DNA from: a virus
Taxonomy: Duplodnaviria; Caudoviricetes
Virus record (IMG/VR): IMGVR_UViG_3300030433_002124
Coordinates: 24,887 to 88,886 of that record
Direction: 5' to 3' (one strand)
Length of the DNA stretch: 64,000 bases
Shown here: positions 1 to 59,692 of the stretch, one piece after another
Position numbering within the stretch: position 1 is the first letter of the stretch
How the letters are laid out: the number at the start of each line of letters is the position of its first letter
Program-made: the position numbers and the translations under genes
The notes under the pieces: model-generated
Database searches by the model: none
The model's input: the letters and a program-made list of their open reading frames with translations, nothing else
Told to the model about the DNA's origin: nothing

Positions 1-2
1 AT

Positions 3-4037: not shown

Positions 4038-4048
4038 ACTATAAGCTA

Positions 4049-4264
4049 ATGGCAAGACGTATTTCAAACTCAGAGTTACGCGAAGATATACTCGATATTA
4101 AGAAGGATGTAAGTGATCTTAAAAAAAGATTACTAGATCCGGATTTGGGAGTCGTGGCTAGAGTTAATAAAAATACGTCTTTTCGTCATAATGCTAATAA
4201 AGTATTATGGTCGATCTGGGTAGCTATAGTAGGTATTCTGGCTAAATTAATGTTTTGGAATTAA
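4049..4264 (+). CDS. Holin-like small membrane protein
   Basis: 71 aa: N-terminal coiled coil, then a single C-terminal hydrophobic segment (VLWSIWVAIVGILAKLMFW). Adjacent to a membrane-anchored spanin-like gene. Confidence 0.5.
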   Translation: MARRISNSELREDILDIKKDVSDLKKRLLDPDLGVVARVNKNTSFRHNANKVLWSIWVAIVGILAKLMFWN

Positions 4265-4275
4265 TATTATATAAT

Positions 4276-4869: not shown

Positions 4870-4874
4870 TAATA

Positions 4875-5516: not shown

Positions 5517-5525
5517 TTTGTAACT

Positions 5526-7829: not shown

Positions 7830-8578
7830 TTTATAAATATGTATCAGTATATGAAATAATAGAAGGAGTATATAGAGACTCAGGTATCCAAGAAGAACTT
7901 GACATTTGGGATGTAATCGAATGGGCAGGAGAAGCATTAGAACTTATTGGGGCTGGAGTATCTTACGTAGAATTAATAGGTGAACTATGTGTACAAGATC
8001 ACAAAGTTAAATTACCTTGTAATTTTCATTCATTAGAACAGATTTCATATAACGGTATTCCACTATCTCAGTGCTCTGGAACATTCGGAGCGATTTCAAC
8101 AACTTCTGGAAATGCTACTAAGAATACTATTGATGGTAAGGAAGTAGATGCTACTAACTTTCCATTAACGGATTCTCAAACTACAAGCGGTAATTGTTAT
8201 TATATAAATGATAATTTTATTGTTACGTCTTTTGACAAAGGATGTTTATTAATATCCTTTAAAGGTATAAATGTAGATAAAGAAGGTTTTCCTATGATAC
8301 CTGATAACATTAGTTATAAAAAAGCTGTAAAGGCTTATATACAAACTATGGTAGATAGAATATGGTGGAGAAGAGGATCGTTACAAGAGGGTGTATATAG
8401 AGAGAGTCAAAGAGATTGGGAATGGTATGTGAAACAAGCAAGAGGATCGGCAAGTATGCCTAATCTAGATCAAATGGAAAATCTTAAGAATCAATGGGTT
8501 AAATTAAAACCTAACATGAATTCTTCAAGAACATTTTTTACTGATCTGGCTAGTCCTGAGCGCAGGAAAATTAACTAA
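7826..8578 (+). CDS. Tail ring protein (crAss-like)
   Basis: 250 aa with EWAGEALELIG, KLPCNF, YINDNFIVTSFDKG and GFPMIPD; directly upstream of the muzzle gene. Confidence 0.7.
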   Translation: MIYKYVSVYEIIEGVYRDSGIQEELDIWDVIEWAGEALELIGAGVSYVELIGELCVQDHKVKLPCNFHSLEQISYNGIPLSQCSGTFGAISTTSGNATKNTIDGKEVDATNFPLTDSQTTSGNCYYINDNFIVTSFDKGCLLISFKGINVDKEGFPMIPDNISYKKAVKAYIQTMVDRIWWRRGSLQEGVYRESQRDWEWYVKQARGSASMPNLDQMENLKNQWVKLKPNMNSSRTFFTDLASPERRKIN

Positions 8579-34800: not shown

Positions 34801-37800
34801 ATGACAATGCTGCAAGACAGATAATAAGAAATTCTTATAAAGACCCCGGATTATTAAAAACAGTAGATAAATCAAGTTTAGTACATAATGATTTAGTAAA
34901 AAATAAAGGTTATAATAAAAATTACTATTTTATCCACAAAGAAGCAGCAGGTGATATTTTAATGAAAGATAGCCCGGGAACAAAAGCTTATGTAGAGTAT
35001 TTTAAAACTTGGGAAAATAAATGGAGATTATATCAACTAACTGAAGCTACAGAAACTGGGGCTATATACCAAGAAATACAGCCTTTAGGAGAAAGATACA
35101 AATTTGTAGAGATGACTAGTAAAGATGCTTTAATTGAAAGTATACATCCTGTAAACAGAACAAAGCACAAGCAGTCTATAGATCAAACATTAACTAATTT
35201 ACCACCTAATACAACAGAAGCTACAGAAAGTATTGATGATATAATGGGTATGCCACAATTAGCAGCTGAAAAAGTATTAGAAACAAAAATACAAGATCTA
35301 GAAGGTAGACTATTAACATGGCTGAAAAAAGAATTTGGAATTGGCCATAGAAGTTATAATGTTTTAAAAACAAAAACAGGAAAAGATGCTTTAGGTATAG
35401 CAGATATTATGCATAAACTAATACATATCTCTAATAGAAGAGATCGTTATACAGTACCAGAAGAAACTGCACATTTCTTTATCGAAATGTTAAAAGATAA
35501 GACTATAGTTAAAAAATTAATGAGTTTAGCTAGTAAAACTAATCTACACGGTGAAGTATTAAGAGATTATGCAGATGTTTATAATACTCCCGAAGAGTTT
35601 CAAAAAGAAACGGCCGGTAAAATATTAGGAAAATACATTGTTTCTGAGTATTATCAAGGAAAAGGCTTTAGTATTGGCACAGAAACAGAGTTTGTTAAAG
35701 AATATAGAGGGTTTTTAGGCATATTAAAGAAGATTTGGGACAGAATTAGATCAATTTTTGTAGGAGAATCTGCAAGTAATGAGTTAAATAGACATATTAG
35801 AGATGTTTTTGGACAAAAAGCGAGACAAATATTAAATGGAAGCGCATTAGGATTAGATGTTAATCTATTAAGAGAGCATACAATACAAAAATACTATAGT
35901 ATTGGTAGTATTATGGAAGGTGCGGGTAAATTAGGAGAAGGTGCGCTTAATAAGATCGGTAAAACATTAAGTATATTAGATTTTAGTGATAGTCAATTAA
36001 AAGAATTAAAAGAAAAAGGTAAAGAATTATTACAAAGAAGAGCTACCTGGAAGCAGGCAGACTTTTTTACAGAGTTACTTGCAGATAGTAATAGAATAAC
36101 AGAGCCTACAGAAGAAAATCAATATTATACTAAAGATGGTATACAATTAACACGAGTTACATCTGTTCAAGATTATTTTACTGATGCATTTGCGGAAGAA
36201 GAAATGGCAAAAAAAGTAGCTAAATCAAACAGAGCAAAAGGAGATATATTTAATTCTGCAGAAAGAGTATTAAATTTATGGAAATTCTTACAAGAAGGTG
36301 GGACAGAAATCCATAAAGTAATGCAAGGAATTATAGAAGGTAAATCTAATAAGCAGGTTATGGAATCTGTTAATATAGATCCAAAAAGTAAAAAAGCTAT
36401 TCAAAGTTCTTTATCTATATTAAGATCTTGGGTACAAGATAAGCTTAATAAAGGTAGTATATTACATGCAGAAGTTAAAGTAGCAGACATGAACAATCTA
36501 ATGGCCGGTACAATAGATGTTATAGAAAGAACATCTGGGGGTCGAGTATTTCTACACGACTTTAAAACTAAGGTCCTTGGAAAGTTAATTGAAATAGAAA
36601 AAAGATTACCTAACTTTAAATATGCATTATCAGGAGTGCCTAATACTATACTGAATCAATATAGATTACAACTTTCGCTATACAAATATATGTTAGAGAG
36701 AAAAGGAATTAAGGTAGATGGTATTAAAGTACAACCATTAGAAGCAGGTGTTAATATAACCCCAGAAACAGGCGTTATTAATTATACATCATTAGCATTT
36801 CCAAGTGCTACATCACCTGTATTAAATAAATTAAATAATTTAAAACCTATTGATAATACTATTTTATCTAACGTTGTAAAGAAACTTAATCCAGAATCAA
36901 CAGGTGTCGCTGAAGAATTAAAAGAAAAAGATGCTGCAGTTAGAGTATTACAACAAGCTAAAGATGTTATTAAAAAGAAAATTGATAGGTATAAGAAATC
37001 AGGAAATCCTAATTACTTAGATGCTATGCAGGAACTTTCTAATCAATTAGAAGAAGTAAGTGAAAAAGAAGGTATTGTTTTATTTGTAAAAAGAGCACTA
37101 AAAGAAATAAACGATGCGCATAAAAGATTATTACAACTGCAGAAAGATGATGCAGTAACTGCAAGAAATTTAGCAGAGATAAGAAATTATGTATCAGCAT
37201 ATGAGATCTTAGATGAAATGACTTTATTAGCACCATCATTAGGAAAAACAGGCTATGAAAATCTTATTAAAACATATGTTGCACCGGCTGTACTAAAAAG
37301 ACAACAGGTAGAAGAATTGTATAAAGCTTTAGGAAGACCTATTATTGCAGACTTTTTAAGTAAGTATAGTACTAAGCCTGGGATGACTAAACAGAAGATG
37401 GAAGCAGAACTTATCAAAGCTAGTAGAGATATAGGTTATTTAGCTAGATGGTTAAATGCATTAGCAGATTCTAAGATGACTGAGCTTGCTATGATCGATA
37501 AGCATATAGGTATCCAAAGAAATATTGTACAAGAAGCTAAATATAATCTAGAATATGGCGCTGGTAAGGCTGAAGGTTTACTTGATATTGTAAAAGAATA
37601 TGAAGATCATAGATCTAGTGAGGGAGCAAGTGTTACTAATTATGTTCAATTATTTGAGCCTATATTAGAATTCCATAATGGTAAGCCAACAGGATATATA
37701 GTAGGCCCATTATCTTATGAGTTTAGAAAAAAGAAATATGATTTTATTCAGGCTAAAAAAGCAGCTGGAGAAGCTATTACATCTAGAATATGGAATGAAT

Positions 37801-39773
37801 TCTATGAAGATAATAAATTTGTTGAAGATCCTAAATATAAAGCATTGATGGCATTACCAGAGTCTAATCCAACAAGAAAATTTTATGATTTCTTTATAGA
37901 AAATTATAAATATGCGCAAAGTATATTACCTTCTTTTGCAAGAAGAGGTTTAATGTTACCCGGATTAAGAAAAACACCACAAGAAAAGTTTATGGAAACA
38001 GCTGGATTTGTTGGATTAAAAGGAGGATGGAACGCAGTAAAAGAAGCTGCATTACAAAAGTTTACTATACTTGAAGATGAAACTGAATACAAAGAAAAAG
38101 TAGATGAAAAAGGAGATGCTATGCATTATGTTCCTATACACTACAGTGAGAAAATAGGATTCGAAGAAGGTATGTTAAATCCTGAAGAAGTATCTTATGA
38201 TCTAAGTAGCGCATTATCTATGTATTATACTATGGCTGTTAATAATCAACAAATGAATGAGATAATAGCAGAATTAGAATTAACTAAAGAATTAATAAGA
38301 ACTAGAAAAGTTACTAAACTAAAAAGTGGTTTACCTGTTATTGATTCAGTTACTGATGCACAAGTTACTACAGAAGGAGTACAGTCTTTAGCTTATAATA
38401 GATTAGTTGATTATCTAAATATGGTTGTTTATGGAGAAAGAAAGAAAAGAGGAGGAGATGTAATGACTATAGCTGGAAAAAAAGTCCCTATGGATAAAAT
38501 AATGGATGGTTTCTTATCTTATAATAGTTTAAGAGTACTAGCATTAAACCCTCATGCGGGTTATGTAAACGTAGCATTTGGTAATTTAATGAATAGTATT
38601 GAAGCTTTTGCTGGTCAATATTTTGGTAAAAAGAATTTCATAAAAGCAAAAACAGCTTATTGGGGAGGTTTATCAGGAATATTAAAAGATACTGTTGGAA
38701 GAGTACCTACATCTAAGATCGGATTAATGAATGAATACTATAATGTATTACAACATTTTGATGAGTTTGGAAATAGAATAAAGCATAAGTCTTTAGCAAT
38801 GCGTGGTATGAATACCGGCTCATTCTTCTTTATGATGACTATGGGGGAACATATGTTACAGACACAGTTATTTATGGCAATGGCTTATAATAAAACATTT
38901 AAACTAGCAAATGGTAAAACAATTAATTTATGGGATGCTCATAAAGTAGTAGATGGTAAGTTAGAACTGAATCCAGAAGTTGCAGAACAGTTTAATCAAA
39001 CAGAAAGAGCTATATTTAAAGAAAAAGTACAGGGGGTTTATCAAAGATTGCATGGTATATATAATCAAAAAGATAGAAATGCTATACAGCAGTATGCTTC
39101 AGGTAGATGGGTTATGCAATTACGTAAATGGATGCCATCAGGATTCCAAAGAAGGTTTGAAGGAATAGAAAAACTATGGTACGACAAAAAATCTGAGTTT
39201 AAAGGACCAGAATGGAATGAAAGATTACAATCTTATGTAGAAGGTAACTATGTTACTATGATGAGATTTATGAATCAATTAAAGTGGGATATTGCTAAGT
39301 TAAAAATATATAGTATAAAAGAAAAATGGAATGAGTTAGATACTTGGCAAAAACAAAATGTAAAACGTACAACAGGAGAAATAGCAAGTTTCCTTGCATT
39401 ATTGGCATTATCAGGGTTAATAAGATCTGACGATGATAAAGATAAAGGTTATGTATATTACCAGTCTTTATATACAGTGCACAGAGTTAAACAAGAATTA
39501 TTATTCTTCTCATGGATACCTGAAACATTTAACGTTCTTAAAGCTCCTGCAGCTAGTATAACATCCATTGAAGTAATATTAGATTTAGTTGCTCAAATAT
39601 TAGAAGACACAGGATCTATAATGATGGGACAAGATATAGAAAGATATAAAAGAAAAACAGGAAGATGGGATAAAGGAGATCCTAAAATATGGTCTAAACT
39701 ATATAAAACATTCCCATTAAGACAATTATCACAAAAAGCTAAAGATAAGTTAAGCTGGTTCCACTTGAATTAA
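22854..39773 (+). CDS. Giant virion-associated multisubunit-type RNA polymerase polyprotein (crAss-like)
   Basis: 5639 aa single ORF. Catalytic DFDID at 33060-33074 is preceded by YRIPTQGKNSM. It also contains degenerate zincin-like motifs and a PD-(D/E)xK segment (AGTIDVIE...HDFKT). Confidence 0.9.
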   Translation: MSQNNSLQNLLNSSTPEPVELNPITNLPIKRGNPQRIPGASSVKDLIDGTYLDPARDESYFSNPVNPDDPYDLKRVDWPVYDRSQINKIRNSNQTHGGRFLAWLNQSIAEIGGGTLYGIGALYDLVAGNVENDYQNALTEIGQDWMDWAKDVTPIFRRNPGKGWDPNDWAWWASNAVSLVSTLSLFIPAAGTVRGVSMAGRGVGMLGKTMRAAGRTSKLGKKSLKFQLGTALAKVPRLGGKRVQALGGMTLGGLSMRYMENYREAGDTFVQSYDKNLEFFQDQAAFDRFLESKEGQKFLEDNPGITLDDPLLKEKAAQWIAGHAAHKSFNMNWHNAAFDILQYGLVFGHLGRLGKGTRASFLAGHSNKVRQAQNALLKNPKIPKTRLGRIWQNYGKKPTKWGAWAYSEGIEEQINWISMQEGIRYGDIMAGNMGPSNPDWLGAGFGRPDFSLLPSMFLGPENRKHAYSQQGEYWSSTLFGAMGGGGFTMLGGLANRKTNIARQKRQIEEIGKRQEFIINALNKRNEAKQKGDVETVKEQNRLLAINLGLNASQAGNVDLLLEQINDENFDQLLLDNGITQEELNTTKKDIINVINNTEKRYRKYSDTIFGTEYGAGAARAVVELEMAMDMYSELMEDIDNRIEESQESTKVAEEKSKIGTNTKRRRQIQTNIISLNQTIEKVKTIIENLENDNATPNLSKEEKQQNDSTIAGFKQALNNFEVELKDLTKEGADLEKNSKETYTEDQFNAEQEYLNQTNRNDVIQLANKKQIYKANRLAAWKQMNEILSGNYEFTVKQKSDKVEDALLSEKEQKKRLKLDEQDRADIERRWNSITKKNARDTENDAIIQDFLDLTSDPNTNQDQIDIFVDEYRDNSEVQTRLKPLIRNWKTRKKQLELQSSIDQLKKLSSEVNEAVKEGKEIENIDKVINEVMLLLNNIWGKKGFRRDSSGKDLSKKQFEQKRKDYKWAEHLTGFLARYKHGIPESLNWEWDKLFDNFVPNVQVMWNNRIGVIYAESGALFFEDEKQNKVQVTENNDILYNLNMIVLKNSTTIPLTVHEDGRTFRINGDYYSNLHEDPTDAIKYNKEDIPISVTLTRWIGNDITITTPGIVMDIARVIETLEAVKIAKFAEFNNQENSLDLGDTIHYAIWKKTSNGYKLVVMNEETGKAVRGKKAKELKHIANEMLSYKIETEINKIKQKFNESITTHNVTPSPITKETLSGTPGQAARISEEVEESNPQKQEEKISAEVQSASPIVNVDRTEVSQKEKDEILNKINNDALEKDKANAEQVIENEKKNQTENLEQEVGTSIDSLINENKSDAEKTVNLVESSVNQQESTPPKKQRPKKAITNPTATNKNKVELDRSYPQAWTPQFVGVNLSTKENPLWVQALDRNGNSMPVFVRSNGAPYRIIPESFLTPTQLDQIDKKSPGPGTINTVFYNEPRVNQNNKVIREGNRIIVNKEKLVRYTVLNPKTKKRENAVMIIYPGSINQSDIIDFDVANSPETGVGTDVILRVEPNWQYHRSKNPNDVIITVRLAGRTDTIISTMRGGSAQFKQNLLLRKNVAEALKGNRSMDIKAKIAGKTDGFVTNIKKKGKSVKQSIDVLQGPIVIGYGMEGTVRIPNSDVSVSNSEFVENGTIYLATKSASGRMIPIRLETSNLNNIAANKVVDIILDNKLTEEERRQEVNKIIQVYGKLEEDTQLAMDNYRIKFPYAGKMIGLQIHAEGSDQISNFEKFITGKPFKYILYDSQGLIQSVGEIQKSDGKTAQRILRDSSDFSQQLLVNNRNVFVEYLKTKKYNVQGHELNINEPYRSPINGYEYDNYIQYLSDPDFSILTTDIPGGNASKFHHSIIYTEVVDDTTSIPFEKADLTKAEIKELTTPSLDEQVVEAIEDEATMSIDDLIENNKKKPKTKNDIDNLDDINLPDIKLREVNVVNPPSYNMLTQEEVDWFKEKFGEQGLNVLERVKWIRVSKGRNAWGFYRNGLVTLAREGKEGTAYWEAFRRVFDIHLSEEEKADILLEADNKYGYDMLMAQEEAGVDISKATYSNEQLETALARDFMDFMMNEKDPSFKGKIKRFFKELLYTIKNFLGLNNSIERLFRNIRDTNYNNYTLEELNKLSKVENEQLRQMYNKNGQPMPQEFVEEVVGNINHDLYTALQNKAKQDNVSFESYLKDQKQLDAFYDALRAQYRAIGKKILDTPGISDRVRSIGENYLRITEDSLWGIRTDALHNLTSPGFKKLAIQNLQPLFGVKYTTYRGKELTDDLDANEVNDIVEDAQPQAQEKIHGINYYYRPVKDTLSKDVKIGLSFIESKEKGKILGKHRFVPFDDVYNYLALNLSNATEGRVIEKLKTLKHELVPQVLEKYTQAGPAWQNKFVTHFNKQNIAFKTLVIDNSGSVKVMYTNRNGLERQIINDWMGNKASSPIFTEVNGENDKINVEKAKEFKAILENDLVKIYNKYRNTSKISEQTAGKKEYMVPMMKVLKSLGITLPQNMKNDLFKDETVSVKDLHAYMFGPNSFQYVFKNLALGRSPYMANNMEMGALGKLAKFVAQYKVDSYLASFIGGNRKSIYSINLNTFDSERTLALRSDETFKETIAKYFSDVFYKPNSKTSHVLLDMLLKHPTVRNNFQLSTFDVIKDRGNFGRATAYDRMTENLSAITRFAMFNNSGNVFGEFSTGTKSDKGQFKFLTLPKIHPKNKAFGMWKSTKLGTEGFIETAIELLRPLALGEYARISKVERQLFDVNMDPKHLIKNFHYRNEPGDMDANGLKFMLFRTLNESEIFNEDTNRLEAIADTNESDIEVYNKLAGVIDAHIKAYIRKQISKTIDAFVEAKAIVKVGKELHNINLPLNAIANKRIGKDVTPAIIEFAINDIVMKPYINTIFGPELAFYKTDKTGNPMVDAGKRQYQSVTPKMNLTYNEEHDYGAKPKFTHAVVRDIIKRSPETVERFQKILEKSGVESTEAKKIASAYTEVLKTDAQGYTTLEFHKRQMESQGKWSKEHQNAYEMYWRKGLMGGKAEQELLLDPLKTYFFGEVLENDGHNNETLVFKQIKHSTVPLLKSYTQAFAEEGITTLDDLRQRMEATGKYKGMQHIDMINFESGVKVGISGLSNVQDLSNVNVEVLESKYLGSPQIITTRPKDPLFGSQFAKLLPSNINNEDSYSLPNGDRLLGSELKTLYNDLWYEKIERSSNKLSKKLGYRAFMDVLTTMNENPTAVSPEQFAAAQLKFLKKVKNEVYQMLQERELPDNYFLALDIEELIDDVDRYGYVTPMAFPTFSKRFENILLSLFKNNILKQKAKGMSAVQVADFGYSLNNELKIEANSNGGIYAEVALPYDLVHKLGLEVGSDLSAVDPSLLELIGYRIPTQGKNSMLMLKVARILPKNMGAVIQLPAEITTIMGSDFDIDKMYIMFPELTKEKRRESAFKIGQYRTKKTFEGLSDQAVNQALFDISASILSSKHSVKEILTPLDSDTYANAIKDYQEARITEDISDFDVFTPAADMYLEKINKDASMLIGLFSMHSTSHALAQDMDIKLNNVAVYFNSNKGQEHTSLSNIYDFDGNYISDHIKDDQNESIDNAKNQRIGPAGVTVYNHGVKMLLNRVGVPGRASLDFINQPIIKQYQKERATNTSNVSDQKLAEKVAEEWQVKQEFLEAKKLFGEDRFFTPSAASLKKSLKHTKGGQREHKVQQAQLLADFFNYIDIARDISKLNMLLNPEGLKNFSRLSFLENFKNAQAHLESSMSFIDIGKMPKRTEAFIKFGIDEAIDTTSYFIPFNKEGFLELKRKIAKYTGQRDGVLSQESIETINSLALYYVFTQPHSPLADLFYTDGKSDMSLVKERLFTLSGSTVSRFLNLRANKNMHNDKFFGMLYAHTENTGKNKFIKLLAFNNTSKLDAAKKSAITDRWEQLLDPNVTKDVEVRRMAEALVLYSIITSGFISTGPNTFVDLIPNSYWSNKSENRDSLSNFFRKEVRTMDYSNYFDDNAARQIIRNSYKDPGLLKTVDKSSLVHNDLVKNKGYNKNYYFIHKEAAGDILMKDSPGTKAYVEYFKTWENKWRLYQLTEATETGAIYQEIQPLGERYKFVEMTSKDALIESIHPVNRTKHKQSIDQTLTNLPPNTTEATESIDDIMGMPQLAAEKVLETKIQDLEGRLLTWLKKEFGIGHRSYNVLKTKTGKDALGIADIMHKLIHISNRRDRYTVPEETAHFFIEMLKDKTIVKKLMSLASKTNLHGEVLRDYADVYNTPEEFQKETAGKILGKYIVSEYYQGKGFSIGTETEFVKEYRGFLGILKKIWDRIRSIFVGESASNELNRHIRDVFGQKARQILNGSALGLDVNLLREHTIQKYYSIGSIMEGAGKLGEGALNKIGKTLSILDFSDSQLKELKEKGKELLQRRATWKQADFFTELLADSNRITEPTEENQYYTKDGIQLTRVTSVQDYFTDAFAEEEMAKKVAKSNRAKGDIFNSAERVLNLWKFLQEGGTEIHKVMQGIIEGKSNKQVMESVNIDPKSKKAIQSSLSILRSWVQDKLNKGSILHAEVKVADMNNLMAGTIDVIERTSGGRVFLHDFKTKVLGKLIEIEKRLPNFKYALSGVPNTILNQYRLQLSLYKYMLERKGIKVDGIKVQPLEAGVNITPETGVINYTSLAFPSATSPVLNKLNNLKPIDNTILSNVVKKLNPESTGVAEELKEKDAAVRVLQQAKDVIKKKIDRYKKSGNPNYLDAMQELSNQLEEVSEKEGIVLFVKRALKEINDAHKRLLQLQKDDAVTARNLAEIRNYVSAYEILDEMTLLAPSLGKTGYENLIKTYVAPAVLKRQQVEELYKALGRPIIADFLSKYSTKPGMTKQKMEAELIKASRDIGYLARWLNALADSKMTELAMIDKHIGIQRNIVQEAKYNLEYGAGKAEGLLDIVKEYEDHRSSEGASVTNYVQLFEPILEFHNGKPTGYIVGPLSYEFRKKKYDFIQAKKAAGEAITSRIWNEFYEDNKFVEDPKYKALMALPESNPTRKFYDFFIENYKYAQSILPSFARRGLMLPGLRKTPQEKFMETAGFVGLKGGWNAVKEAALQKFTILEDETEYKEKVDEKGDAMHYVPIHYSEKIGFEEGMLNPEEVSYDLSSALSMYYTMAVNNQQMNEIIAELELTKELIRTRKVTKLKSGLPVIDSVTDAQVTTEGVQSLAYNRLVDYLNMVVYGERKKRGGDVMTIAGKKVPMDKIMDGFLSYNSLRVLALNPHAGYVNVAFGNLMNSIEAFAGQYFGKKNFIKAKTAYWGGLSGILKDTVGRVPTSKIGLMNEYYNVLQHFDEFGNRIKHKSLAMRGMNTGSFFFMMTMGEHMLQTQLFMAMAYNKTFKLANGKTINLWDAHKVVDGKLELNPEVAEQFNQTERAIFKEKVQGVYQRLHGIYNQKDRNAIQQYASGRWVMQLRKWMPSGFQRRFEGIEKLWYDKKSEFKGPEWNERLQSYVEGNYVTMMRFMNQLKWDIAKLKIYSIKEKWNELDTWQKQNVKRTTGEIASFLALLALSGLIRSDDDKDKGYVYYQSLYTVHRVKQELLFFSWIPETFNVLKAPAASITSIEVILDLVAQILEDTGSIMMGQDIERYKRKTGRWDKGDPKIWSKLYKTFPLRQLSQKAKDKLSWFHLN

Positions 39774-52739: not shown

Positions 52740-54607
52740 TATTTACTCCATTTTTTAGTTATTGTATAATCTACAGTCATATCAAACCCTTTGATAATCT
52801 TTTCACCGGCCTTTTTCATTATGTCACATTGTATTTCAGCCCATTCTTTTGCAAAATCATCTCTAACTTCTACACCTATCTCATCATGTACTTGTGTTAC
52901 CATATAACATGGTAAATTATCTTCAATGATACGACTTCTAATCATTAACATAGCTTGTTTAATCATATCTGCACCAGTACCCTGGATAGGAGTATTTTTA
53001 GAAGCACGTTCAATAGCTCCTTTAGTTTTAAAATCTTGAGGTGAATTTTGTATACCTTGATACCATAGAGGAAACCATCTAATTCTTCGAAAAGGTCTAA
53101 ATGTCCTAATATGTCCATGGTTTACGCCATACGCTCCAAGTTTAGTTAAAAATGATTTTATATTTGGAAATGCACTAAAATATTTTTTTATAAGTATATC
53201 AGCTTCATCAACACTAATATTTAATGTATCAGATAGTTTAAATTTACTCATGCCATAAGCTAGACCAAAATTGATAGTCTTAATCATTGTTCTCAATGCT
53301 TTTTTATCTCCAGTATGCCATTTATCTCCAAATACTAACTCTGCACAAACTGAATGTAGATCTTCATTATTCTTTCTACATTTAATCCATACAGGATCTT
53401 GAGAACCGTAAGCTATAATAGCTAACTCCTGTCCGCTGTAATCAACAGATACAATACTGTATCCATCTCTCGCAGTGAAACAATTCCTAAACTCATTCCT
53501 GGCTGGAATGTTTTGCATATTAGGCTTACGATCCTCTTTTGATCCACTAGACACACGTCCAGTGTTTAATACTTGCCAAAAGCTGGTTCTAACCTTACCA
53601 TCCTTCATGACATATTTAAGAAATGATTTACCATAAGTACTTGATATTTTTTGTTTTTCTTTATATCGTAAGTACTTGGTAATCAGAGGTCTATCTTTAA
53701 ATTTAGATAATTCAAATGCATTAGTATTATCTAATTTTCTTTTTAGATAGCTCTCCATTACCTTCTTAACTTGAGTTGGAGATGACCACTTAACATTGAC
53801 TTTTCTTAACTCTTCGGCAGGTGTAAACATATCGAGCTGTAAATAATTAGGCATGAAATCAGTCAATTCATTACTAATTATTTCTTTATCTAATTCAAGC
53901 TCAATCTCTCGTACTAATTCATCGTTACTATCTGCATTTGAAAGCCACGAGTCCTGATCAAAACATAGACCATTATATTCTATGTCAGCAAAAGCTAAAG
54001 ATGCTTTATTCTCTAATACTAAAACATGATTCAATTCAAGCTTGTGTATTTGATCTAATTGTTTCGTCATGATTTGCATGAGAAATTCAACATCTTGCGC
54101 GCCATAGCATATCTGCTCGGTTGTAAAAGGTCTCCCTTCTAAACCTATGAACTTATTACGAACTTCCTTGTTAAGTGATACCTCCAGATATCTTTGAGTT
54201 AAATGATTAAGACTATAACCATATTTATCCTTACCACAATTTAATACACATTCTGCCAACATAGTGTCATATATGTTATTTAAATTGATATTATAATTTG
54301 ATTTAATAAATTTATAATCAAATTTAACATTGTGAAATATTTTTACTCTTTCACTATCTTCTAGATAAGGTCTTAATGGTTCGATAGATACAGTTCTAGT
54401 ATCAATAACATACTGAACTTCATCTGTTCCAATTTGAAACATGATTATCTTTTTTGTTAGAAAGTCTTTACCATTTGTTTCTGTGTCTATAGCAAATACA
54501 TATTGTCTAGATATATATTCGACACAATCATCTATTGTCCCTAACTCAAAAGGACACAGACTTGTATGTAACGGTTTTTGTTCCGTTATTAAGATTATTT
54601 TTCCCAT
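52739..54607 (-). CDS. polA: DNA polymerase family A with 3'-5' exonuclease
   Basis: Exonuclease motifs DTET, FHNVKFD and YGAQD; polymerase motifs DYSGQEL, KTINFGLAYG and VHDE. Confidence 0.95.
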   Translation of the reverse strand: MGKIILITEQKPLHTSLCPFELGTIDDCVEYISRQYVFAIDTETNGKDFLTKKIIMFQIGTDEVQYVIDTRTVSIEPLRPYLEDSERVKIFHNVKFDYKFIKSNYNINLNNIYDTMLAECVLNCGKDKYGYSLNHLTQRYLEVSLNKEVRNKFIGLEGRPFTTEQICYGAQDVEFLMQIMTKQLDQIHKLELNHVLVLENKASLAFADIEYNGLCFDQDSWLSNADSNDELVREIELELDKEIISNELTDFMPNYLQLDMFTPAEELRKVNVKWSSPTQVKKVMESYLKRKLDNTNAFELSKFKDRPLITKYLRYKEKQKISSTYGKSFLKYVMKDGKVRTSFWQVLNTGRVSSGSKEDRKPNMQNIPARNEFRNCFTARDGYSIVSVDYSGQELAIIAYGSQDPVWIKCRKNNEDLHSVCAELVFGDKWHTGDKKALRTMIKTINFGLAYGMSKFKLSDTLNISVDEADILIKKYFSAFPNIKSFLTKLGAYGVNHGHIRTFRPFRRIRWFPLWYQGIQNSPQDFKTKGAIERASKNTPIQGTGADMIKQAMLMIRSRIIEDNLPCYMVTQVHDEIGVEVRDDFAKEWAEIQCDIMKKAGEKIIKGFDMTVDYTITKKWSK

Positions 54608-54655
54608 AATTTATTTTTTACTTCTGTGTATTATACACATGCTGGTTTATACTAT

Positions 54656-54886
54656 TCAATAAATAAGATCGTCAGCTTCTCTATGATTATTTATATTATT
54701 ATTAAGACCAAAGTCTTCAATATAACTAATAACTGACTCTACATATTTTGTTTTATATTCTACATTATTAAATGTAATAGTATCAATATTGTTATCTATT
54801 GCATTTTTATGCAACTGTTTCATCTCTGTTAAATCCTCCTGATCTAACAAAGAACACCATTTCATATAACTCATGATACTATTCAT
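54656..54886 (-). CDS. Hypothetical protein
   Basis: 76 aa ORF co-oriented with the operon. Confidence 0.6.
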   Translation of the reverse strand: MNSIMSYMKWCSLLDQEDLTEMKQLHKNAIDNNIDTITFNNVEYKTKYVESVISYIEDFGLNNNINNHREADDLIY

Positions 54887-54965
54887 TTAAATTACTTGTG
54901 AATATGGACCAAAAAGTCCACATAACTATTATAGCCGATACGACTATCACTATTTTTCCAATCAT
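54879..54965 (-). CDS. 28-aa single-TM peptide (MIGKIVIVVSAIIVMWTFWSIFTSNLNE)
   Basis: Read manually, below the ORF-track cutoff. Its stop overlaps the start of 54656..54886. Confidence 0.45.
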   Translation of the reverse strand: MIGKIVIVVSAIIVMWTFWSIFTSNLNE

Positions 54966-55033
54966 TTTAATCTATTTTATTAATTAATTACTATTTGCCT
55001 ACAGTATCTGATTAATAATGATTGTCCTGTTTG

Positions 55034-55150
55034 TAAATGTTGAGATGCTAGGAGTCGAACCTAAAAACACAGTCATGTTTCGAGTAACTAGCACACTCTC
55101 TCAATGTATTATACATCAAACATATTCCAACAATGTCATCTCAAACATTT
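55034..55150 (-). ncRNA. tRNA-like structured RNA
   Basis: 7-bp acceptor-like stem TGAGATG/CATCTCA, T-arm TTAGG-TTCGACT-CCTAG and D-like arm ACAT-TGTTGGAAT-ATGT, with an oversized, non-canonical interior. Confidence 0.5.
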
Positions 55151-55181
55151 ATTTGGTGCTGAATGATGTCTGTTAAACTAA

Positions 55182-55367
55182 TTACTTTAAAGGACCATGT
55201 ATAGCTTTAATGTATGTACCATTATGGCCATCCCATGCTATTCTACCTTTTTTATGTAATTTAGTTCTCCATTTTAATTCTTTCATACGATCTTTGTAGT
55301 CTTCTCGAGACTCACCTGGTTCACGCGTTCCATTCATGTTGATATTGTAAAAAGCTGATTCACTCAT
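55182..55367 (-). CDS. Small basic hypothetical protein
   Basis: 61 aa, downstream of a host-type promoter. Confidence 0.65.
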   Translation of the reverse strand: MSESAFYNINMNGTREPGESREDYKDRMKELKWRTKLHKKGRIAWDGHNGTYIKAIHGPLK

Positions 55368-55406
55368 TTATTTAAGTTTTTATCTATAAAATTATTTACT
55401 AATATA

Positions 55407-55438
55407 CAAAAATAAAAGCCTAATGCTAGCCCTGCAAG
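55407..55438 (-). promoter_or_regulatory. Bacteroidota-type promoter for the replication operon
   Basis: - strand CTTG (55438-55435), a 20-nt spacer and TATTTTTG (55414-55407). Confidence 0.55.
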
Positions 55439-55464
55439 AAAACTTATAACAGTTATTTCTGTAA

Positions 55465-55713
55465 TCATATTGTTCCAATTATTAAACATGTGATTGCAGA
55501 CTTCAAACTATTTATTCTCTCGTCTATTACATTTATATCTTCTTGACTTGCTGTTTTTATAATACTATTCTTTAAAGCTTCAAACTCTACAAGTTTAGCA
55601 TCTAATACCTTAACAGCATAAGGTAATTCAGTTTTCCTTTTACTAGGATTTTGACTTAAATTCATAAGATATTCATATTTCTTATGAATTTCATCATTTA
55701 TATTTAATTTCAT
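55465..55713 (-). CDS. Hypothetical helical protein
   Basis: 82 aa ORF overlapping the upstream small gene. Confidence 0.6.
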   Translation of the reverse strand: MKLNINDEIHKKYEYLMNLSQNPSKRKTELPYAVKVLDAKLVEFEALKNSIIKTASQEDINVIDERINSLKSAITCLIIGTI

Positions 55714-55873
55714 GATCCCATTTTAATAACATTAATACTACAGCTGTAAATAACAAGGCAGAACCTGCTAAAGCTATGATGTCCAGTTGTTCTGTTATAA
55801 TTAACTCATAATAGAACATAATCCAGTTAAGACAAGCGCCTAACGCGATTACATAAAAAAATATTCTTTTCAT
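55694..55873 (-). CDS. 59-aa two-TM membrane protein
   Basis: Read manually: MKRIFFYVIALGACLNWIMFYYELIITEQLDIIALAGSALLFTAVVLMLLKWDHEIKYK. Confidence 0.6.
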   Translation of the reverse strand: MKRIFFYVIALGACLNWIMFYYELIITEQLDIIALAGSALLFTAVVLMLLKWDHEIKYK

Positions 55874-55875
55874 AA

Positions 55876-56037
55876 TTATTTAGTTTTATTATACGCCTGG
55901 AATTGTTTTAATAAGGTTTTAAACTTGCGTTTTAATTTCTCTGTATCATATACTTTTCTATATCCAGGCTTATTATAGGTATATTCTACTTCTACAGGAA
56001 ATACTTCTTCGTAAATATGTCCTTTTTTACTTTCCAT
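55876..56037 (-). CDS. 53-aa hypothetical protein
   Basis: Read manually: MESKKGHIYEEVFPVEVEYTYNKPGYRKVYDTEKLKRKFKTLLKQFQAYNKTK; 2 nt from the next start. Confidence 0.6.
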   Translation of the reverse strand: MESKKGHIYEEVFPVEVEYTYNKPGYRKVYDTEKLKRKFKTLLKQFQAYNKTK

Positions 56038-56159
56038 ATTTAATAATTATTTAATATTAGTTTAACATTCTTTTAACATTAGATATGTATATTACACTTA
56101 ATGAGAATAGACATAACTAAATATTTATACATTATCTTAATGATAACAGTATTTCTTTT

Positions 56160-56600
56160 AAGCGTATAAGCCTAGTGATACTTTCGATAATAATGGGTTT
56201 AACACTCTAGCTCTTTAGCACTGTGTTAGGTCATCCTTAGGATTACTTTCCCGCGATAAGCTGGCCGGCTTATCTTTATTATCTAATAATATCACTGGCT
56301 CATACATAAACACTGACAAGATCAGAGCAGTCCAGAGTTCGCACGCTAATGTATCGTAAATTACATGCTAACTATCATAACCTGGGTTGTCCAAGCTAAG
56401 TCTTATGCAAAATAATTTTTCTCGATCATTAGATTAGAAAACAACGTGATGTTTATCGTAAATACCCGTTCGGATAAATAGGATAAACACACTATCTGGT
56501 GACGTGCTTTACAAGACCCGTGTACACCAATAAGTGTGTGGTACATAAGGATTTAATCTTATGTCTAATGCAGCCTCACGGCTCAACACTTGTCATTGTT
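56160..56600 (-). ncRNA. Candidate large multi-domain structured RNA
   Basis: No ORF of 60 aa or more and raised GC. Many nested stems, e.g. 56164-56180 with 56290-56305, 56255-56261 with 56268-56274, and a GNRA hairpin AGCC-GTGA-GGCT at 56572-56583. Confidence 0.55.
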
Positions 56601-57010
56601 TATATTTTAAAAGAGGAGCTCCCACATGCTTAATATTAAAATTATTATAAAAATCTATTTACATGTACGAATGAGAAAATAAAATCTACTTACATCGAGC
56701 ACTCCTCTTAAGTTTGAGAAAGAGCTAGGTTGATCAGCATTACCCCAATGCTTCATTTTCACTAACTCAATCTCTTGTATTAAGACTATGTGAACAGGAA
56801 ATGGTATCAATTCACACAAAGTATAACAGGATGTTAATAATTAAGATACAACCTATTCACATAGTCAATATTATATCTACGGTATACAATCCTTCATTTA
56901 GATATAATTATAAGTTGGTAGGACTTAATGAAGAGATAAAAAGAGGCTGACAACAAACAGACAAAAACACTCTTGGAACATATTACTAGTGTCCCTATCC
57001 TACCATAGTT

Positions 57011-57268
57011 TTAATGCTCCTTATACTTATCAATAGAAAAGAATATTCCTACTCCTCTACCACAATCTTTTCTTACTTCATTTAATATTATAACAAAGAA
57101 ACAGCCTACAAGCATAGATAATTGCATAGATATTAAATCTAGCCATACTGTACCTGTAAACTCTCCTGTCATTATGTAATAAGGGAAATAAAAGAATAAA
57201 AAGACTGCACCTGCCATAAAAGCAAATTTAATCAGCGTTTCTAAACAGAAATACAAAGTTTTTTTCAT
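57011..57268 (-). CDS. Two-TM membrane protein
   Basis: 85 aa with two hydrophobic segments, downstream of the TATAGCGAAAGTAT motif. Confidence 0.6.
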   Translation of the reverse strand: MKKTLYFCLETLIKFAFMAGAVFLFFYFPYYIMTGEFTGTVWLDLISMQLSMLVGCFFVIILNEVRKDCGRGVGIFFSIDKYKEH

Positions 57269-57290
57269 TTTAATTTAATTTAAATAGTTA

Positions 57291-57304
57291 ATACTTTCGC
57301 TATA
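57291..57304 (-). promoter_or_regulatory. Repeated motif B TATAGCGAAAGTAT (copy 1)
   Basis: Exact 14-nt copy of 58112-58125; both lie upstream of - strand genes. Confidence 0.5.
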
Positions 57305-57311
57305 AATATAA

Positions 57312-57353
57312 TGATAGATAATGAGCCGTAGCTATAAAGCCCATTATCTATCA
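57312..57353 (-). terminator. Long hairpin after the 229-aa gene
   Basis: Perfect 12-bp TGATAGATAATG/CATTATCTATCA arms; terminator or processing stem. Confidence 0.5.
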
Positions 57354-57370
57354 ATATACATCCAGCAAGA

Positions 57371-58060
57371 TTATAATCTCTTATTTAGAATGTCATCAAA
57401 TGCTTTTTCCGATGTAGCATTTGCTTCAACAGTCATAGAAGCTTCTTTCATCTCAGGTATCAATGTATGATCCCAATTTCTATTTACTTCACCTGTTGCA
57501 GTATTCAATTCTTCAACTTGAACATTCACATTACTAAATATCATTGCTTTAGTTCCATTATTATCACCATAAATGATAGGACCATCTTTACCAGCTCTTT
57601 TACATCTGTTTTCAGGGTCTTCAGCTTGATAGTCATTCATTTCAAATGTTTCTGTAACTTGCAATTTAAACATGTACTTTTTATCACCTATTGCTAAGTG
57701 AGCACCTTTAGCACCTACAAATTTACCTTCACCAATTTGTAAATTGTCAAAATCTTCTTGTTTTAATGTAATACCACTATTTTTAGCAATTTCAGTTAAT
57801 TGTTTAGCTGTAGACAGTACCCATGCACGTCTTGCACCACGTTTAAATCGATTATCATCTAAATTTAATAGTTGTAATGCACTATTGCTATTATTGTTGC
57901 TTACATTTAAGATTTCACCAAATTGACCTTGATATTGAGGTTGACCTGTATCTACTCCATCCTTGTGTACATTTCTTACTCGCTGGATAGCTAAAAGGGC
58001 ACAATCTCCCACATTCATTGTAGGTGTGAATTGATTTATTCTATTTTTCGTATCTTCCAT
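57371..58060 (-). CDS. Early-region hypothetical protein (beta-rich, possibly nucleic-acid binding)
   Basis: 229 aa with its own upstream motif and downstream hairpin; no family recognised. Confidence 0.7.
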   Translation of the reverse strand: MEDTKNRINQFTPTMNVGDCALLAIQRVRNVHKDGVDTGQPQYQGQFGEILNVSNNNSNSALQLLNLDDNRFKRGARRAWVLSTAKQLTEIAKNSGITLKQEDFDNLQIGEGKFVGAKGAHLAIGDKKYMFKLQVTETFEMNDYQAEDPENRCKRAGKDGPIIYGDNNGTKAMIFSNVNVQVEELNTATGEVNRNWDHTLIPEMKEASMTVEANATSEKAFDDILNKRL

Positions 58061-58111
58061 AAGATAATTTGCACGGTTATAACAGTGTGCTCTTCGTTTT
58101 TGTAGATTACT

Positions 58112-58125
58112 ATACTTTCGCTATA
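58112..58125 (-). promoter_or_regulatory. Repeated motif B TATAGCGAAAGTAT (copy 2)
   Basis: Exact repeat of 57291-57304, lying within a 10-bp inverted repeat (58105-58114 / 58139-58148). Confidence 0.5.
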
Positions 58126-58318
58126 TATATATTAATATTATAGTAATCAGGGTTATGTATAAAATGATTAAAATGTAGGTTTAAACATATACTACCGTAA
58201 GAGAATACATTTACTTTCGTAATTATGCTTTCACTCTGTTGGTTAGATTTGTTTTAATGAGACAATCAGGAATATAATTCTTTGTATTCTCTCTTTAGTA
58301 GCTATGTTTAATCCCTAC

Positions 58319-58352
58319 TTTAGTAAAGGTCCTTGATCTATAAAAAAAAGAC
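58319..58352 (-). repeat. Motif A direct repeat copy 1 (T-tract-ATAGATC-nn-GACCTT-ACTAAA)
   Basis: 30/35 identical to 58546-58580; a partial third copy lies at ~58934-58952. Confidence 0.65.
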
Positions 58353-58398
58353 TGCTTAATCAAATGTTCATTTCATATGAGGGTACAATTAAACAGTC
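58350..58398 (-). terminator. Intrinsic terminator
   Basis: GACTGTTTAAT/ATTAAGCAGTC stem with a U-G pair on the - strand, followed by a T8 tract. Confidence 0.6.
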
Positions 58399-58439
58399 AT
58401 CCCTAACCAAAGAGTAGAACAGTGAGCTAGAAACAGACA

Positions 58440-58520
58440 TTAGAAGCCTGTTTCATAGCTATCTTTTTCAGCATAAAGTTCTTCAATAAGATCTTCATAA
58501 GTTAATTCTTTATCATTCAT
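58440..58520 (-). CDS. 26-aa acidic peptide (MNDKELTYEDLIEELYAEKDSYETGF)
   Basis: Read manually; sits between motif A copy 2 and a terminator. Confidence 0.4.
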   Translation of the reverse strand: MNDKELTYEDLIEELYAEKDSYETGF

Positions 58521-58545
58521 GATCAGTTGGATTTAGTTACCAAAA

Positions 58546-58580
58546 TTTAGTGAAGGTCATAGATCTATTAAAAAAAACAC
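58546..58580 (-). repeat. Motif A direct repeat copy 2
   Basis: TTTAGTGAAGGTCATAGATCTATTAAAAAAAACAC on the + strand. Confidence 0.65.
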
Positions 58581-58625
58581 TAATTACCCCGAAGGGGCTG
58601 CACTGAGTAAGAGAGTGTGCAGCAA
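58570..58625 (-). terminator. Hairpins plus U tract after the 80-aa gene
   Basis: GCTGCAC/GTGCAGC stem, CCC-UUCG-GGG tetraloop hairpin on the - strand, then T8. Confidence 0.6.
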
Positions 58626-58675
58626 CTCCCCAAGCTGTATTGTCTTGCTGGACTTGTAGCTTGCTACTCTAACGC

Positions 58676-58918
58676 TTACTTCAAGATCACATAGCCATGC
58701 TTAGCCATGATATCCTTGATAGCTTTGTGTACTTCTTCACTGTACACTATGAACTCAGTCTTGTTAGCAACAGTTAACTCACCTGTGTTGATGTCAACAT
58801 CAGTTACAGTTCCTGATTGCTCAAGTACTAAGATCTCACCACCACCATTCTCAGCCTTACGAGTGTAAGGACCACGAACTGTAGTGAAAGCGTTAGATGG
58901 AATGTTATTCGCATCCAT
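58676..58918 (-). CDS. First early-region hypothetical protein
   Basis: 80 aa with locally GC-richer codon use; motif A partial copy just upstream. Confidence 0.65.
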   Translation of the reverse strand: MDANNIPSNAFTTVRGPYTRKAENGGGEILVLEQSGTVTDVDINTGELTVANKTEFIVYSEEVHKAIKDIMAKHGYVILK

Positions 58919-58955
58919 ATCTACTATTTGTACAGTTCATGGATCTATTTAATTT

Positions 58956-59075
58956 CGACCCACGGGGGGTTTGATTGCGCGTTGGGCCCGGGGGGAGTTG
59001 TCATAAATGGTCTGCATCTCTGAATACTTACTATGAAAAAAAATATTAAAAAAATTTTTTTTAAAAAATATTTTA
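58956..59075. other. Strand-divergence point with G-rich island and A/T tracts (candidate terminus/pac/origin)
   Basis: G6 at 58964-58969, G3 at 58984-58986 and G6 at 58990-58995 in an AT-rich genome, followed by long A and T tracts between divergent gene blocks. Confidence 0.4.
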
Positions 59076-59112
59076 TTATATTTGGAATTACTAATATTAA
59101 AAATATAGCGAA

Positions 59113-59292
59113 ATGGTAAATTTTATAAACTCATGGAAAAGGGGTAATAAGAAGAATAAAATAGATTTCTGTATAAGATTCGGATATCTTACTATTCTGG
59201 AAATTAATATTTGTTTAGATTCAAGTTGTGAAAAAGATTGTAAATGTAAAAGAGCAAGACTTATGTTCATGAACTTTGGAATAGAGATTTAA
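59113..59292 (+). CDS. 59-aa Cys-containing hypothetical protein
   Basis: Read manually: MVNFINSWKRGNKKNKIDFCIRFG...FMNFGIEI; downstream of a TATATTTG -7 box (59077-59084). Confidence 0.6.
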   Translation: MVNFINSWKRGNKKNKIDFCIRFGYLTILEINICLDSSCEKDCKCKRARLMFMNFGIEI

Positions 59293-59302
59293 AAAATAAA
59301 TA

Positions 59303-59692
59303 ATGGATACATTACATGAAAAAAGAAAAAAAAGAAGGGAAGCCTATAAAAAGTTAACTGAAAAACAACAGAAAGAACTTCATAGTGCTGATAATTATAA
59401 AATATGTGATCATCATAATTTTAGAGCAGCTTCTTATGTAAATAGAGAAGAAGCTTTAAAGTTTTTTAATGATAATAATTATAAAGCAGAGTATACAATG
59501 GTATTAAAAGATGGTACAAATAGATGGTACTGGACTGTAAGAAATAAAGATTATGTAAAAATAGGATTTATATTAGGCATACCAAGTAAAGATCAGAAGC
59601 AAGGAAATCATTCACATAATGATCCATTTAAATCGCAATTTGATTACATGGAAATTAATAAACATGGAGAAGAATTTCTAGAGAAAAAATAG
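59303..59692 (+). CDS. Hypothetical protein
   Basis: 129 aa ORF; its stop codon overlaps the first bases of the tRNA. Confidence 0.65.
   Translation: MDTLHEKRKKRREAYKKLTEKQQKELHSADNYKICDHHNFRAASYVNREEALKFFNDNNYKAEYTMVLKDGTNRWYWTVRNKDYVKIGFILGIPSKDQKQGNHSHNDPFKSQFDYMEINKHGEEFLEKK

What the first reader, a model, noticed from the sequence alone, without database searches (positions are those of the whole stretch)
56160..56600. Candidate large ornate non-coding RNA in the early region
About 440 nt lack a credible ORF but are densely and hierarchically paired on the - strand. GTATGAGCCAGTGATA (56305-56290) pairs with TATCACTAGGCTTATAC (56180-56164). That stem closes a multiloop containing GATAATA/TATTATC, GATAAGC-6-GCTTATC and TAACAC/GTGTTA helices. 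An upstream domain has GTGTTTATC/GATAAACAT, TTTTCT/AGAAAA, ACATAAG/CTTATGT and an AGCC-GUGA-GGCU GNRA hairpin. I do not recognise it as a group I/II intron, RNase P RNA, tmRNA, ROOL or GOLLD. It may be an undescribed phage RNA, expressed just upstream of the replication operon.
Basis: partly seen in the sequence, partly recalled or inferred. Interest (0 to 1): 0.8.

Follow-up and report, generated by a model that had tools for sequence, protein, structure and literature searches.

The report
New abundant structured RNA, marine crAss-like phage
The flagged stretch encodes a real, roughly 440-base folded non-coding RNA of an uncatalogued family, kept by about twenty related marine crAss-like phages and found in ocean RNA samples where its neighbouring genes are not; what it does is still unknown.

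Summary
Window 56603-56164 (minus strand) is ORF-free and folds far better than shuffled sequence (z -6.75). It matches none of 4227 Rfam families.

About 20 distinct relatives carry it, from two clades of uncultured marine phages and from metagenomes. Compensatory base changes support at least six helices. The core is a three-way junction with conserved joining strands and a conserved internal loop around GUAAAG. A long 3' hairpin with one bulged A follows directly.

In four marine metatranscriptome runs from two studies, the only contigs landing on a 5.5-kb stretch lie inside this RNA (56223-56589). So it accumulates above the neighbouring mRNAs.

The phage is crAss-like: a 5639-aa protein matches the virion RNA polymerase of phage phi14:2. 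That phage was reported to make abundant early long non-coding RNAs of unknown function. My models do not match phi14:2, so this is an analogue, not a shown homologue.

More distant sister phages with the same replication genes lack the RNA, so it is accessory. My best guess (about 40%) is a stable, trans-acting protein-binding particle made early in infection.

The scan has noted other large RNAs in crAss-like phages. A sequence look-up found no look-alike of this one in any other genome.

The parts
56164..56603 (-). Whole structured non-coding RNA (about 440 nt)
   Evidence: Fold z -6.75. Homologous in 6 IMG/VR contigs at 73-89% identity, in a second clade by covariance models, and in metagenome contigs. 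RNA-library contigs cover 56223-56589.
56306..56603 (-). 5' domain, closed by helix P1 (56603-56589 with 56320-56306, 15 bp)
   Evidence: RNAalifold finds 23 of 64 pairs compensatory in clade 1 and 23 of 62 in clade 2. P1 has at least 8 different complementary sequence pairs across members.
56495..56584 (-). Conserved core arm, with several parts. P2 5' strand: 56584-56581 (partner 56328-56325). P3: 56580-56577 with 56506-56503. Internal loop: 56576-56573 opposite 56509-56507. P5: 56572-56569 with 56513-56510, using the first bases of GUAAAG. P4 hairpin: 56564-56543. Joining strand UCA: 56502-56500. P6 5' strand: 56499-56495.
   Evidence: In the 19-sequence alignment A8, P3 and P5 are 100% paired, 6 of 8 pairs change on both sides, 0 of 500 shuffles reach this, and slid controls are near zero.
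56325..56336 (-). P6 3' strand (56336-56332), joining strand ACU, and P2 3' strand (56328-56325)
   Evidence: P6 shows 9 or more different complementary pairs across members, always directly before the conserved GACU. P2 reads GAGC/GCUC, GAAC/GUUC or GAC/GUC within clade 1.
56164..56305 (-). 3' domain: a long stem (56305-56290 with 56180-56164, one bulged A on the 3' strand) closing a multiloop of three hairpins. One hairpin has an invariant CGGCCA loop.
   Evidence: In clade 2 the stem is kept with compensatory changes, but the multiloop is replaced by one short hairpin.
56040..56163 (-). A+T-rich segment between the RNA and the next gene, nearly invariant in clade 1. It may or may not belong to the RNA.
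   Evidence: Alignment A1 columns 605-725 are almost all invariant, although PolA is only 77-83% identical in protein. No RNA contig covers it.

Best explanation
Window 56603-56164 (minus strand) is the gene of a stable, roughly 440-nt structured non-coding RNA of a new family. It is carried by one lineage of marine crAss-like phages.

SHOWN: it is non-coding. Its fold is conserved by compensatory changes. The fold is a three-way junction (P2/P3, P6, P1) with conserved joining strands UCA and ACU. It also has a conserved internal loop at GUAAAG and a long 3' hairpin with one bulged A, placed directly next to P1. It is present in environmental RNA libraries in which its flanking genes are not seen. 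More distant sister phages that share the replication module lack it.

INFERRED: it is transcribed rightmost-to-leftmost with the early/replication unit, probably by the injected virion RNA polymerase as in phi14:2. It then survives as a discrete species because the compact fold and the long 3' hairpin protect it. The hairpin with its asymmetric bulge may also be the site where the RNA is cut from, or ends before, the downstream mRNA.

MOST LIKELY ROLE (about 40%): a trans-acting folded particle that binds a host or phage protein early in infection, as a decoy, sponge or scaffold. I judge the claim 'real, expressed, conserved RNA of a new family' at about 0.9. The figure below is for the whole statement.
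For: Non-coding.

Fold stability and strand. G-U pairs are kept on the minus strand only.

Covariation.

Both domains always occur together: the 5' core model hits 27 loci, all of which have the 3' hairpin.

No known family.

Accumulation: in 4 RNA runs from 2 studies (2019, 2025), every contig that lands on 54000-59500 lies within 56223-56589, with 0-4 mismatches. None lies on the flanking genes.

Context: the virion RNA polymerase homologue and the same strand as the replication genes. In phi14:2, early intergenic RNAs are more abundant than most mRNAs and persist (bioRxiv 10.1101/2020.03.07.982082).

Accessory nature: about 60 loci with PolA near 50% identity have no match. There the homologue of the upstream 229-aa gene sits within 1 kb of PolA. 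This argues against an essential cis role for the replication operon.

Conserved unpaired bases in junctions and loops point to a specific tertiary fold or a bound partner.
Against: No partner, target or activity is known.

Contigs cannot show transcript ends, strand or true level, and RNA libraries can contain DNA.

The RNA always sits directly in front of the first small gene of the downstream unit (35 nt in clade 2), which also fits a leader.

Most covariation in the long stem is a single split between two clades, so it reflects few independent events.

The neighbouring conserved 229-aa protein gave no family and no fold match, so no candidate protein partner was identified.
Confidence: 0.55

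Rival explanations
1. It is a cis-acting leader of the replication operon. The folded RNA would modify or protect the transcript that continues into the small genes and the helicase, primase and polymerase genes. Possible modes are processive antitermination, protection of the 5' end, or processing at the long hairpin in the manner of phage T7 RNase III sites. What accumulates would be the stable processed leader.
For: It has the same strand and a fixed position directly upstream of the first gene of the unit in both clades. The 3' hairpin ends about 35 nt before the next start codon in clade 2. The long, nearly perfect helix with one asymmetric bulge looks like a double-strand-specific nuclease site. 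No promoter-like or terminator-like site above chance separates it from its neighbours.
Against: Sister phages with a homologous replication module lack it. The genes immediately downstream are not conserved between the two clades, whereas the RNA is. A multi-helix junction of 330-440 nt with conserved unpaired bases is far more than a processing site needs.
Confidence: 0.25
2. It is a replication element. The transcript would prime or open an origin in the invariant A+T-rich DNA just downstream. This resembles the structured primer RNA of ColE1 plasmids, which a family A polymerase extends.
For: The phage encodes a family A DNA polymerase, a primase and helicases just downstream. The 124 bp after the RNA are almost invariant and A+T-rich, with short repeats and a palindrome.
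Against: The GC-skew switch lies at window about 58.1-59.1 kb, 1.5-2.5 kb away from the RNA. Clade 2 lacks most of the A+T-rich segment. Sister phages with the same replication genes lack the RNA.
Confidence: 0.05
3. The conserved hairpins act as DNA, not RNA. For example, they could be extruded single-strand hairpins that serve as promoters for the virion RNA polymerase, as in phage N4.
For: The phi14:2 virion polymerase transcribes denatured DNA in vitro, and no early promoter motif is known. The region is rich in inverted repeats, as is the region upstream of it.
Against: Conserved G-U pairs exist on one strand only. The other strand folds much worse. Long-range nested helices span 280 nt. 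RNA-library contigs cover exactly this stretch.
Confidence: 0.04
4. It is a ribozyme or a degenerate self-splicing intron.
For: Its size and multi-helix core are in the range of small group I introns. Short strings resemble conserved group I elements by eye (my own recollection, not a test).
Against: No Rfam intron or ribozyme model matches, even at E up to 10. No gene is interrupted and no exons flank it. There is no reverse transcriptase in the genome. Its position is fixed rather than mobile. The string that resembles a group I element lies in a part that clade 2 lacks.
Confidence: 0.03

Closest known systems
Abundant early 'long non-coding RNAs' of Cellulophaga crAss-like phage phi14:2 (g004-g005 and g005-g006 junctions; bioRxiv 10.1101/2020.03.07.982082)
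   Same: Both lie in long ORF-free stretches in the early region of a marine crAss-like phage with a virion RNA polymerase, on the strand of the early genes. Both are more abundant than neighbouring mRNAs. Both have unknown function.
   Different: No sequence or structure match was found. Both covariance models and nhmmer find nothing in phi14:2 positions 1-9000. The neighbouring 229-aa protein is not similar to g004. This is an analogue by position and behaviour, not a shown homologue.
GOLLD and ROOL (Rfam), large ornate RNAs of phages and prophages
   Same: All are large, multi-helix, phage-encoded, highly expressed RNAs without a known function. This RNA also has an invariant hairpin loop (CGGCCA in clade 1) that contains a self-complementary GGCC, which could allow self-association.
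   Different: Neither model matches. This RNA is smaller (330-440 nt), has a different architecture and is not next to tRNA genes. Self-assembly is untested.
Phage phi29 pRNA
   Same: Both are stable RNAs encoded in the early region and built around a three-way junction. This comparison rests on my own knowledge.
   Different: pRNA is about 170 nt, belongs to protein-primed podoviruses and works on the packaging motor. Nothing links this RNA to packaging, and no Rfam match was found.
Phage T7 RNase III processing hairpins
   Same: Both have a long near-perfect helix with an asymmetric interruption between cistrons of an early transcript, which can leave a protective 3' hairpin on the upstream product. 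This comparison rests on my own knowledge.
   Different: The resemblance concerns only the 3' hairpin. Cleavage is not shown, and the 300-nt junction domain has no counterpart.

Membership tests
New family defined here (crAss-like early three-way-junction RNA) | P3 (4 bp) and P5 (4-5 bp) flanking the conserved internal loop at GUAAAG | tested here: met
   In 19 sequences, 100% of cells pair, 6 of 8 pairs change on both sides, and 0 of 500 shuffles reach this.
New family defined here (crAss-like early three-way-junction RNA) | P1 closing helix and P6, with joining strands UCA and ACU | tested here: met
   P1 and P6 each show 8 or more different complementary pairs. P6 always ends at the conserved GACU.
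New family defined here (crAss-like early three-way-junction RNA) | Long 3' hairpin with one bulged A, directly after P1 | tested here: met
   It co-occurs with the 5' core in all complete loci.
phi14:2 early long non-coding RNAs | Encoded in the early region of a crAss-like phage with a virion RNA polymerase, and more abundant than neighbouring mRNAs | tested here: met
   The giant protein matches 6VR4 at E 2.5e-26 and carries DFDID. RNA-library contigs cover only the RNA. Contigs are a weak measure of level.
phi14:2 early long non-coding RNAs | Sequence or structure homology to the phi14:2 intergenic RNAs | tested here: not met
   R1 and R2 with filters off, and nhmmer, find nothing.
Group I intron (Rfam RF00028) | Match to the covariance model, and insertion in a gene with flanking exons | tested here: not met
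   No match at E up to 10. No interrupted gene.
Group II intron / retron / DGR template | Domain V or msr-msd match, and a reverse transcriptase in the genome | tested here: not met
   No Rfam match. No RVT_1 in the 88.9-kb genome.
GOLLD, ROOL, OLE, HEARO, raiA, IMES and other large Rfam RNAs | Match to the family covariance model | tested here: not met
   The whole window and 7 related loci give no match at gathering score. The region gives none at E up to 10.
RNase P RNA, tmRNA, 6S, SRP RNA, tRNA | Match to Rfam or ARAGORN models | tested here: not met
RNase III processing site (T7 type) | Cleavage by RNase III at the interrupted helix | not testable with these tools
   Only the shape fits. 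Contigs cannot show RNA ends.

The most novel reading that the evidence does not exclude
The RNA is a self-contained functional particle that the phage makes in bulk at the start of infection to neutralise or capture a host factor, such as an RNA-degrading enzyme, the host RNA polymerase or a defence sensor. It would be one of several unrelated large RNAs that different crAss-like lineages place in their early regions for the same purpose. That would make bulk early structured RNA a general but unrecognised takeover strategy of this very abundant phage order.
Probability: 0.2. Interest if true: 0.85.

Novelty: new variant of a known kind. Interest (0 to 1): 0.62.

Why it matters
crAss-like phages are among the most abundant viruses in guts and oceans, and almost nothing is known about their early takeover of the host. 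The only transcriptome of a cultured member reported very abundant early non-coding RNAs and left their function open. This finding adds a second, unrelated RNA of that kind. It comes with a covariation-backed secondary structure, a defined set of about 20 members and field evidence that it accumulates. That gives structural and biochemical work a concrete object: probing, cryo-EM and pull-downs. It is also a candidate for a new Rfam family. The RNA is accessory: sister phages with the same replication genes lack it. This favours a role in dealing with the host rather than in core replication.

Tried and rejected
- **Phage collection:** blastn of the 971-bp gap found no match.
- **Rfam:** no hit at gathering score or in E-value mode, apart from a chance snoRNA hit at E 4.
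- **More distant phages:** covariance models R1 and R2 and nhmmer found nothing in about 60 loci with PolA near 50% identity, nor in phi14:2. Two ORF-poor gaps of one such locus were folded. One had z -0.52. The other was too long for shuffling.
- **Bacterial and archaeal genomes:** an exact-pattern scan of 185,579 genomes gave 70 hits. None matched R1, so all are chance. This tests only the exact 17-mer.
- **IMG/VR pattern scans:** two scans returned only the already known contigs plus chance hits.
- **Promoter and terminator scan:** no more sites than in shuffles.
- **Reverse transcriptase:** none in the genome.
- **Neighbouring proteins:** they had no Pfam or PHROG family. The conserved 229-aa protein had 9 relatives, a low-confidence model (pLDDT 61.5) and no PDB fold match at E 0.001 or better. 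No protein partner can be proposed.
- **RNAalifold helix GGCUGC/GCACGUC in clade 1:** rejected, because it is not kept in clade 2 and conflicts with P3, which covaries.
- **A pseudoknot between the conserved AGUC and GACU strings:** considered by eye, but it clashes with the closing pair of P6 and shows little covariation. Left open.
- **Sarcin-ricin or kink-turn reading of the internal loop:** the strand order does not fit (my own recollection of those motifs).
- **RNA runs:** no cover outside 56223-56589. Contigs cannot prove absence, and the 3' end (56222-56164) is simply not covered.

Full report
**What is in the sequence.** On the minus strand, window 56040-57010 has no credible ORF. The two short frames inside the flagged part (34 and 47 aa) are broken by stops and frameshifts in the closest relatives. 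G+C rises to 33-40% over 56100-56600, against 22-30% around it. The minus strand of 56160-56600 folds at -134 kcal/mol, against -99.7 +/- 5.1 for 100 dinucleotide-preserving shuffles (z -6.75). The plus strand reaches only z -3.77.

**Known families.** The whole window gives no match above gathering score to any of 4227 Rfam families. A permissive search of 55900-57100 at E up to 10 gives only a chance snoRNA hit. Seven related loci give only a tRNA elsewhere. ARAGORN finds one tRNA-Met 3 kb away. The genome has no reverse transcriptase.

**Relatives.**
- The window is part of an 88,886-bp IMG/VR virus record rated 100% complete.
- Its family A DNA polymerase retrieved 80 related loci.
- The RNA region is alignable by sequence in six contigs whose polymerase is 77-83% identical (73-89% nucleotide identity over the RNA).
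- A covariance model of the 3' domain (R1) then found a shorter version in a second clade, with polymerase 61-66% identical. It lies on the same strand and in the same slot: after a conserved 229/241-aa gene and a small membrane-like gene, and before a run of small genes and the polymerase.
- A metagenome scan with a 17-mer from the hairpin, filtered with R1, added further variants from Tara and other marine assemblies. An IMG/VR scan added three more contigs.
- A second model of the 5' core (R2) hits every locus that has the hairpin (27 loci).
- Neither model hits about 60 loci with polymerase near 50% identity, nor phi14:2. In those more distant phages, the homologue of the 229-aa gene lies within 1 kb of the polymerase, so the slot is absent.
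- The family therefore has about 20 distinct known members, in one lineage of marine phages with genomes of 86-89 kb.

**Structure.**
- RNAalifold, run separately on each clade, gave 23 of 64 and 23 of 62 pairs with compensatory changes.
- I anchored all sequences on the conserved strings. This shows a common core. The 15-bp helix P1 closes the 5' domain. P2 continues it in clade 1.
- P3 is a 4-bp helix formed by the four bases before a conserved AGNC and the four bases after GUAAAG. It reads CGUG/CACG, CGUU/AACG, CCAG/CUGG, UCAA/UUGG or CCUG/CAGG in different members.
- P5 follows across a conserved internal loop and uses the first bases of GUAAAG. It reads UGCA/UGUA, UAUUA/UAAUA or CAUAU/AUAUG, among others.
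- On a plain MAFFT alignment of 19 sequences, RNAalifold recovered P3 and P5 on its own. Counting gave 100% paired cells, 6 of 8 pairs changed on both sides, 0 of 500 shuffles as good, and near-zero values when partners were slid.
- P3 is joined to P6 by an almost invariant UCA. P6 has nine or more different complementary sequence pairs and always ends at a conserved GACU.
- P1 likewise has eight or more different pairs.
- The P4 hairpin has an invariant AGGAAC loop in clade 2 and covarying stems in both clades.
- The 3' domain starts with no linker after P1. Its 16-19-bp stem with one bulged A is kept in all members (95.8% paired, 6 of 19 pairs compensatory). The three-hairpin multiloop of clade 1 is replaced by one short hairpin in clade 2.
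- Conserved G-U pairs occur on the minus strand only, which fixes the strand.
- A fold of the window RNA constrained to the comparative helices costs only 4.7 kcal/mol more than the unconstrained optimum.
The supposed GNRA hairpin is replaced by P2/P3. TTTTCT/AGAAAA conflicts with a helix that covaries.

**Expression.** A search of public runs found marine metatranscriptomes holding small shares of a 1.5-kb query. I laid four of them, from two studies (2019 and 2025), on window 54000-59500. Every contig that fits lies within 56223-56589. There are six pieces of 163-285 nt with 0-4 mismatches, plus one unrelated 38-nt piece near 59300. Nothing lies on the flanking genes or on the rest of the gap. 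Contigs give neither ends, strand nor level, and RNA libraries may hold DNA. Even so, contaminating DNA would not select this 370-nt stretch in four libraries. One contig runs from the 5' domain into the 3' domain, so both are on one molecule.

**Context.**
- A 5639-aa ORF carries DFDID and matches the virion RNA polymerase of phi14:2 (PDB 6VR4, E 2.5e-26). The phage is therefore crAss-like.
- Downstream on the same strand lie small ORFans, a family A polymerase, helicases, a primase and rIIA/rIIB-like genes.
- GC skew follows gene direction and switches at window about 58.1-59.1 kb, not at the RNA.
- The phi14:2 study reports that two long intergenic regions of its early region are transcribed above most genes from the earliest time point. 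They do not decline later, and their function was left open. In the current record that gap is 1.7 kb.

**Interpretation.** The RNA is real, conserved, expressed and of no catalogued family. Its conserved unpaired bases at the junction and internal loop suggest a specific tertiary fold or a bound partner. Its absence from sister phages with a homologous replication module makes an essential cis or origin role less likely. I therefore favour a stable trans-acting particle made early in infection (about 40%). Next come a processed leader of the replication unit (25%), an origin or primer element (5%), DNA-level hairpins (4%) and a ribozyme or intron (3%). The long hairpin with its asymmetric bulge plausibly forms or protects the 3' end. 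This is inference only.

**Relation to earlier scan notes.** Notes on other genomes describe other large RNAs in crAss-like phages. Two of them (e1-5755262, e1-5786738) report a counterpart in phi14:2. My models do not match phi14:2, and a sequence look-up found no look-alike of this RNA in any other genome's window. I cannot say whether the families are related.

Noticed in passing
window 56784-56866 (- strand): A second conserved element lies about 180 nt upstream of the RNA. A 15-bp stem with compensatory changes in 3 pairs encloses about 55 well-conserved bases. It is kept in five clade-1 sequences at up to 90% identity, while its surroundings diverge. No RNA-library contig covered it.
   Followed up: partly
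window 56040-56163 (- strand): The A+T-rich segment between the RNA and the next gene is almost invariant across clade 1. It is more conserved than the protein genes. It contains a short palindrome and a repeated AATGTTAAA. Only its last part has a counterpart in clade 2. It could be a promoter, an operator, a translation leader or the 3' tail of the RNA.
   Followed up: partly
window 22854-39773 (+ strand): This is a single 5639-aa ORF. Residues around 3403 carry DFDID and match the phi14:2 virion RNA polymerase gp66 (6VR4, E 2.5e-26). The polymerase is thus embedded in a protein more than twice the size of gp66.
   Followed up: partly
window about 58100-59300: This is the divergent ORF-free region between the leftward early/replication unit and the rightward genes. 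The GC skew changes sign here, and G+C reaches 43-46% at 58500-59000, in a genome of about 30%. It may hold the origin and/or further RNAs. Rfam finds nothing.
   Followed up: no
window 57371-58060 (- strand): This 229-aa early protein is conserved across both RNA-bearing clades (27% identity) and, more weakly, in the sister clade. It has no Pfam or PHROG family, only 9 database relatives and no PDB fold match.
   Followed up: yes
L016 3765-5618 and L008 3735-5588: Clade 2 phages carry a 617-aa ORF between the RNA and the polymerase. It has no counterpart in the window, which has only small ORFs there.
   Followed up: no
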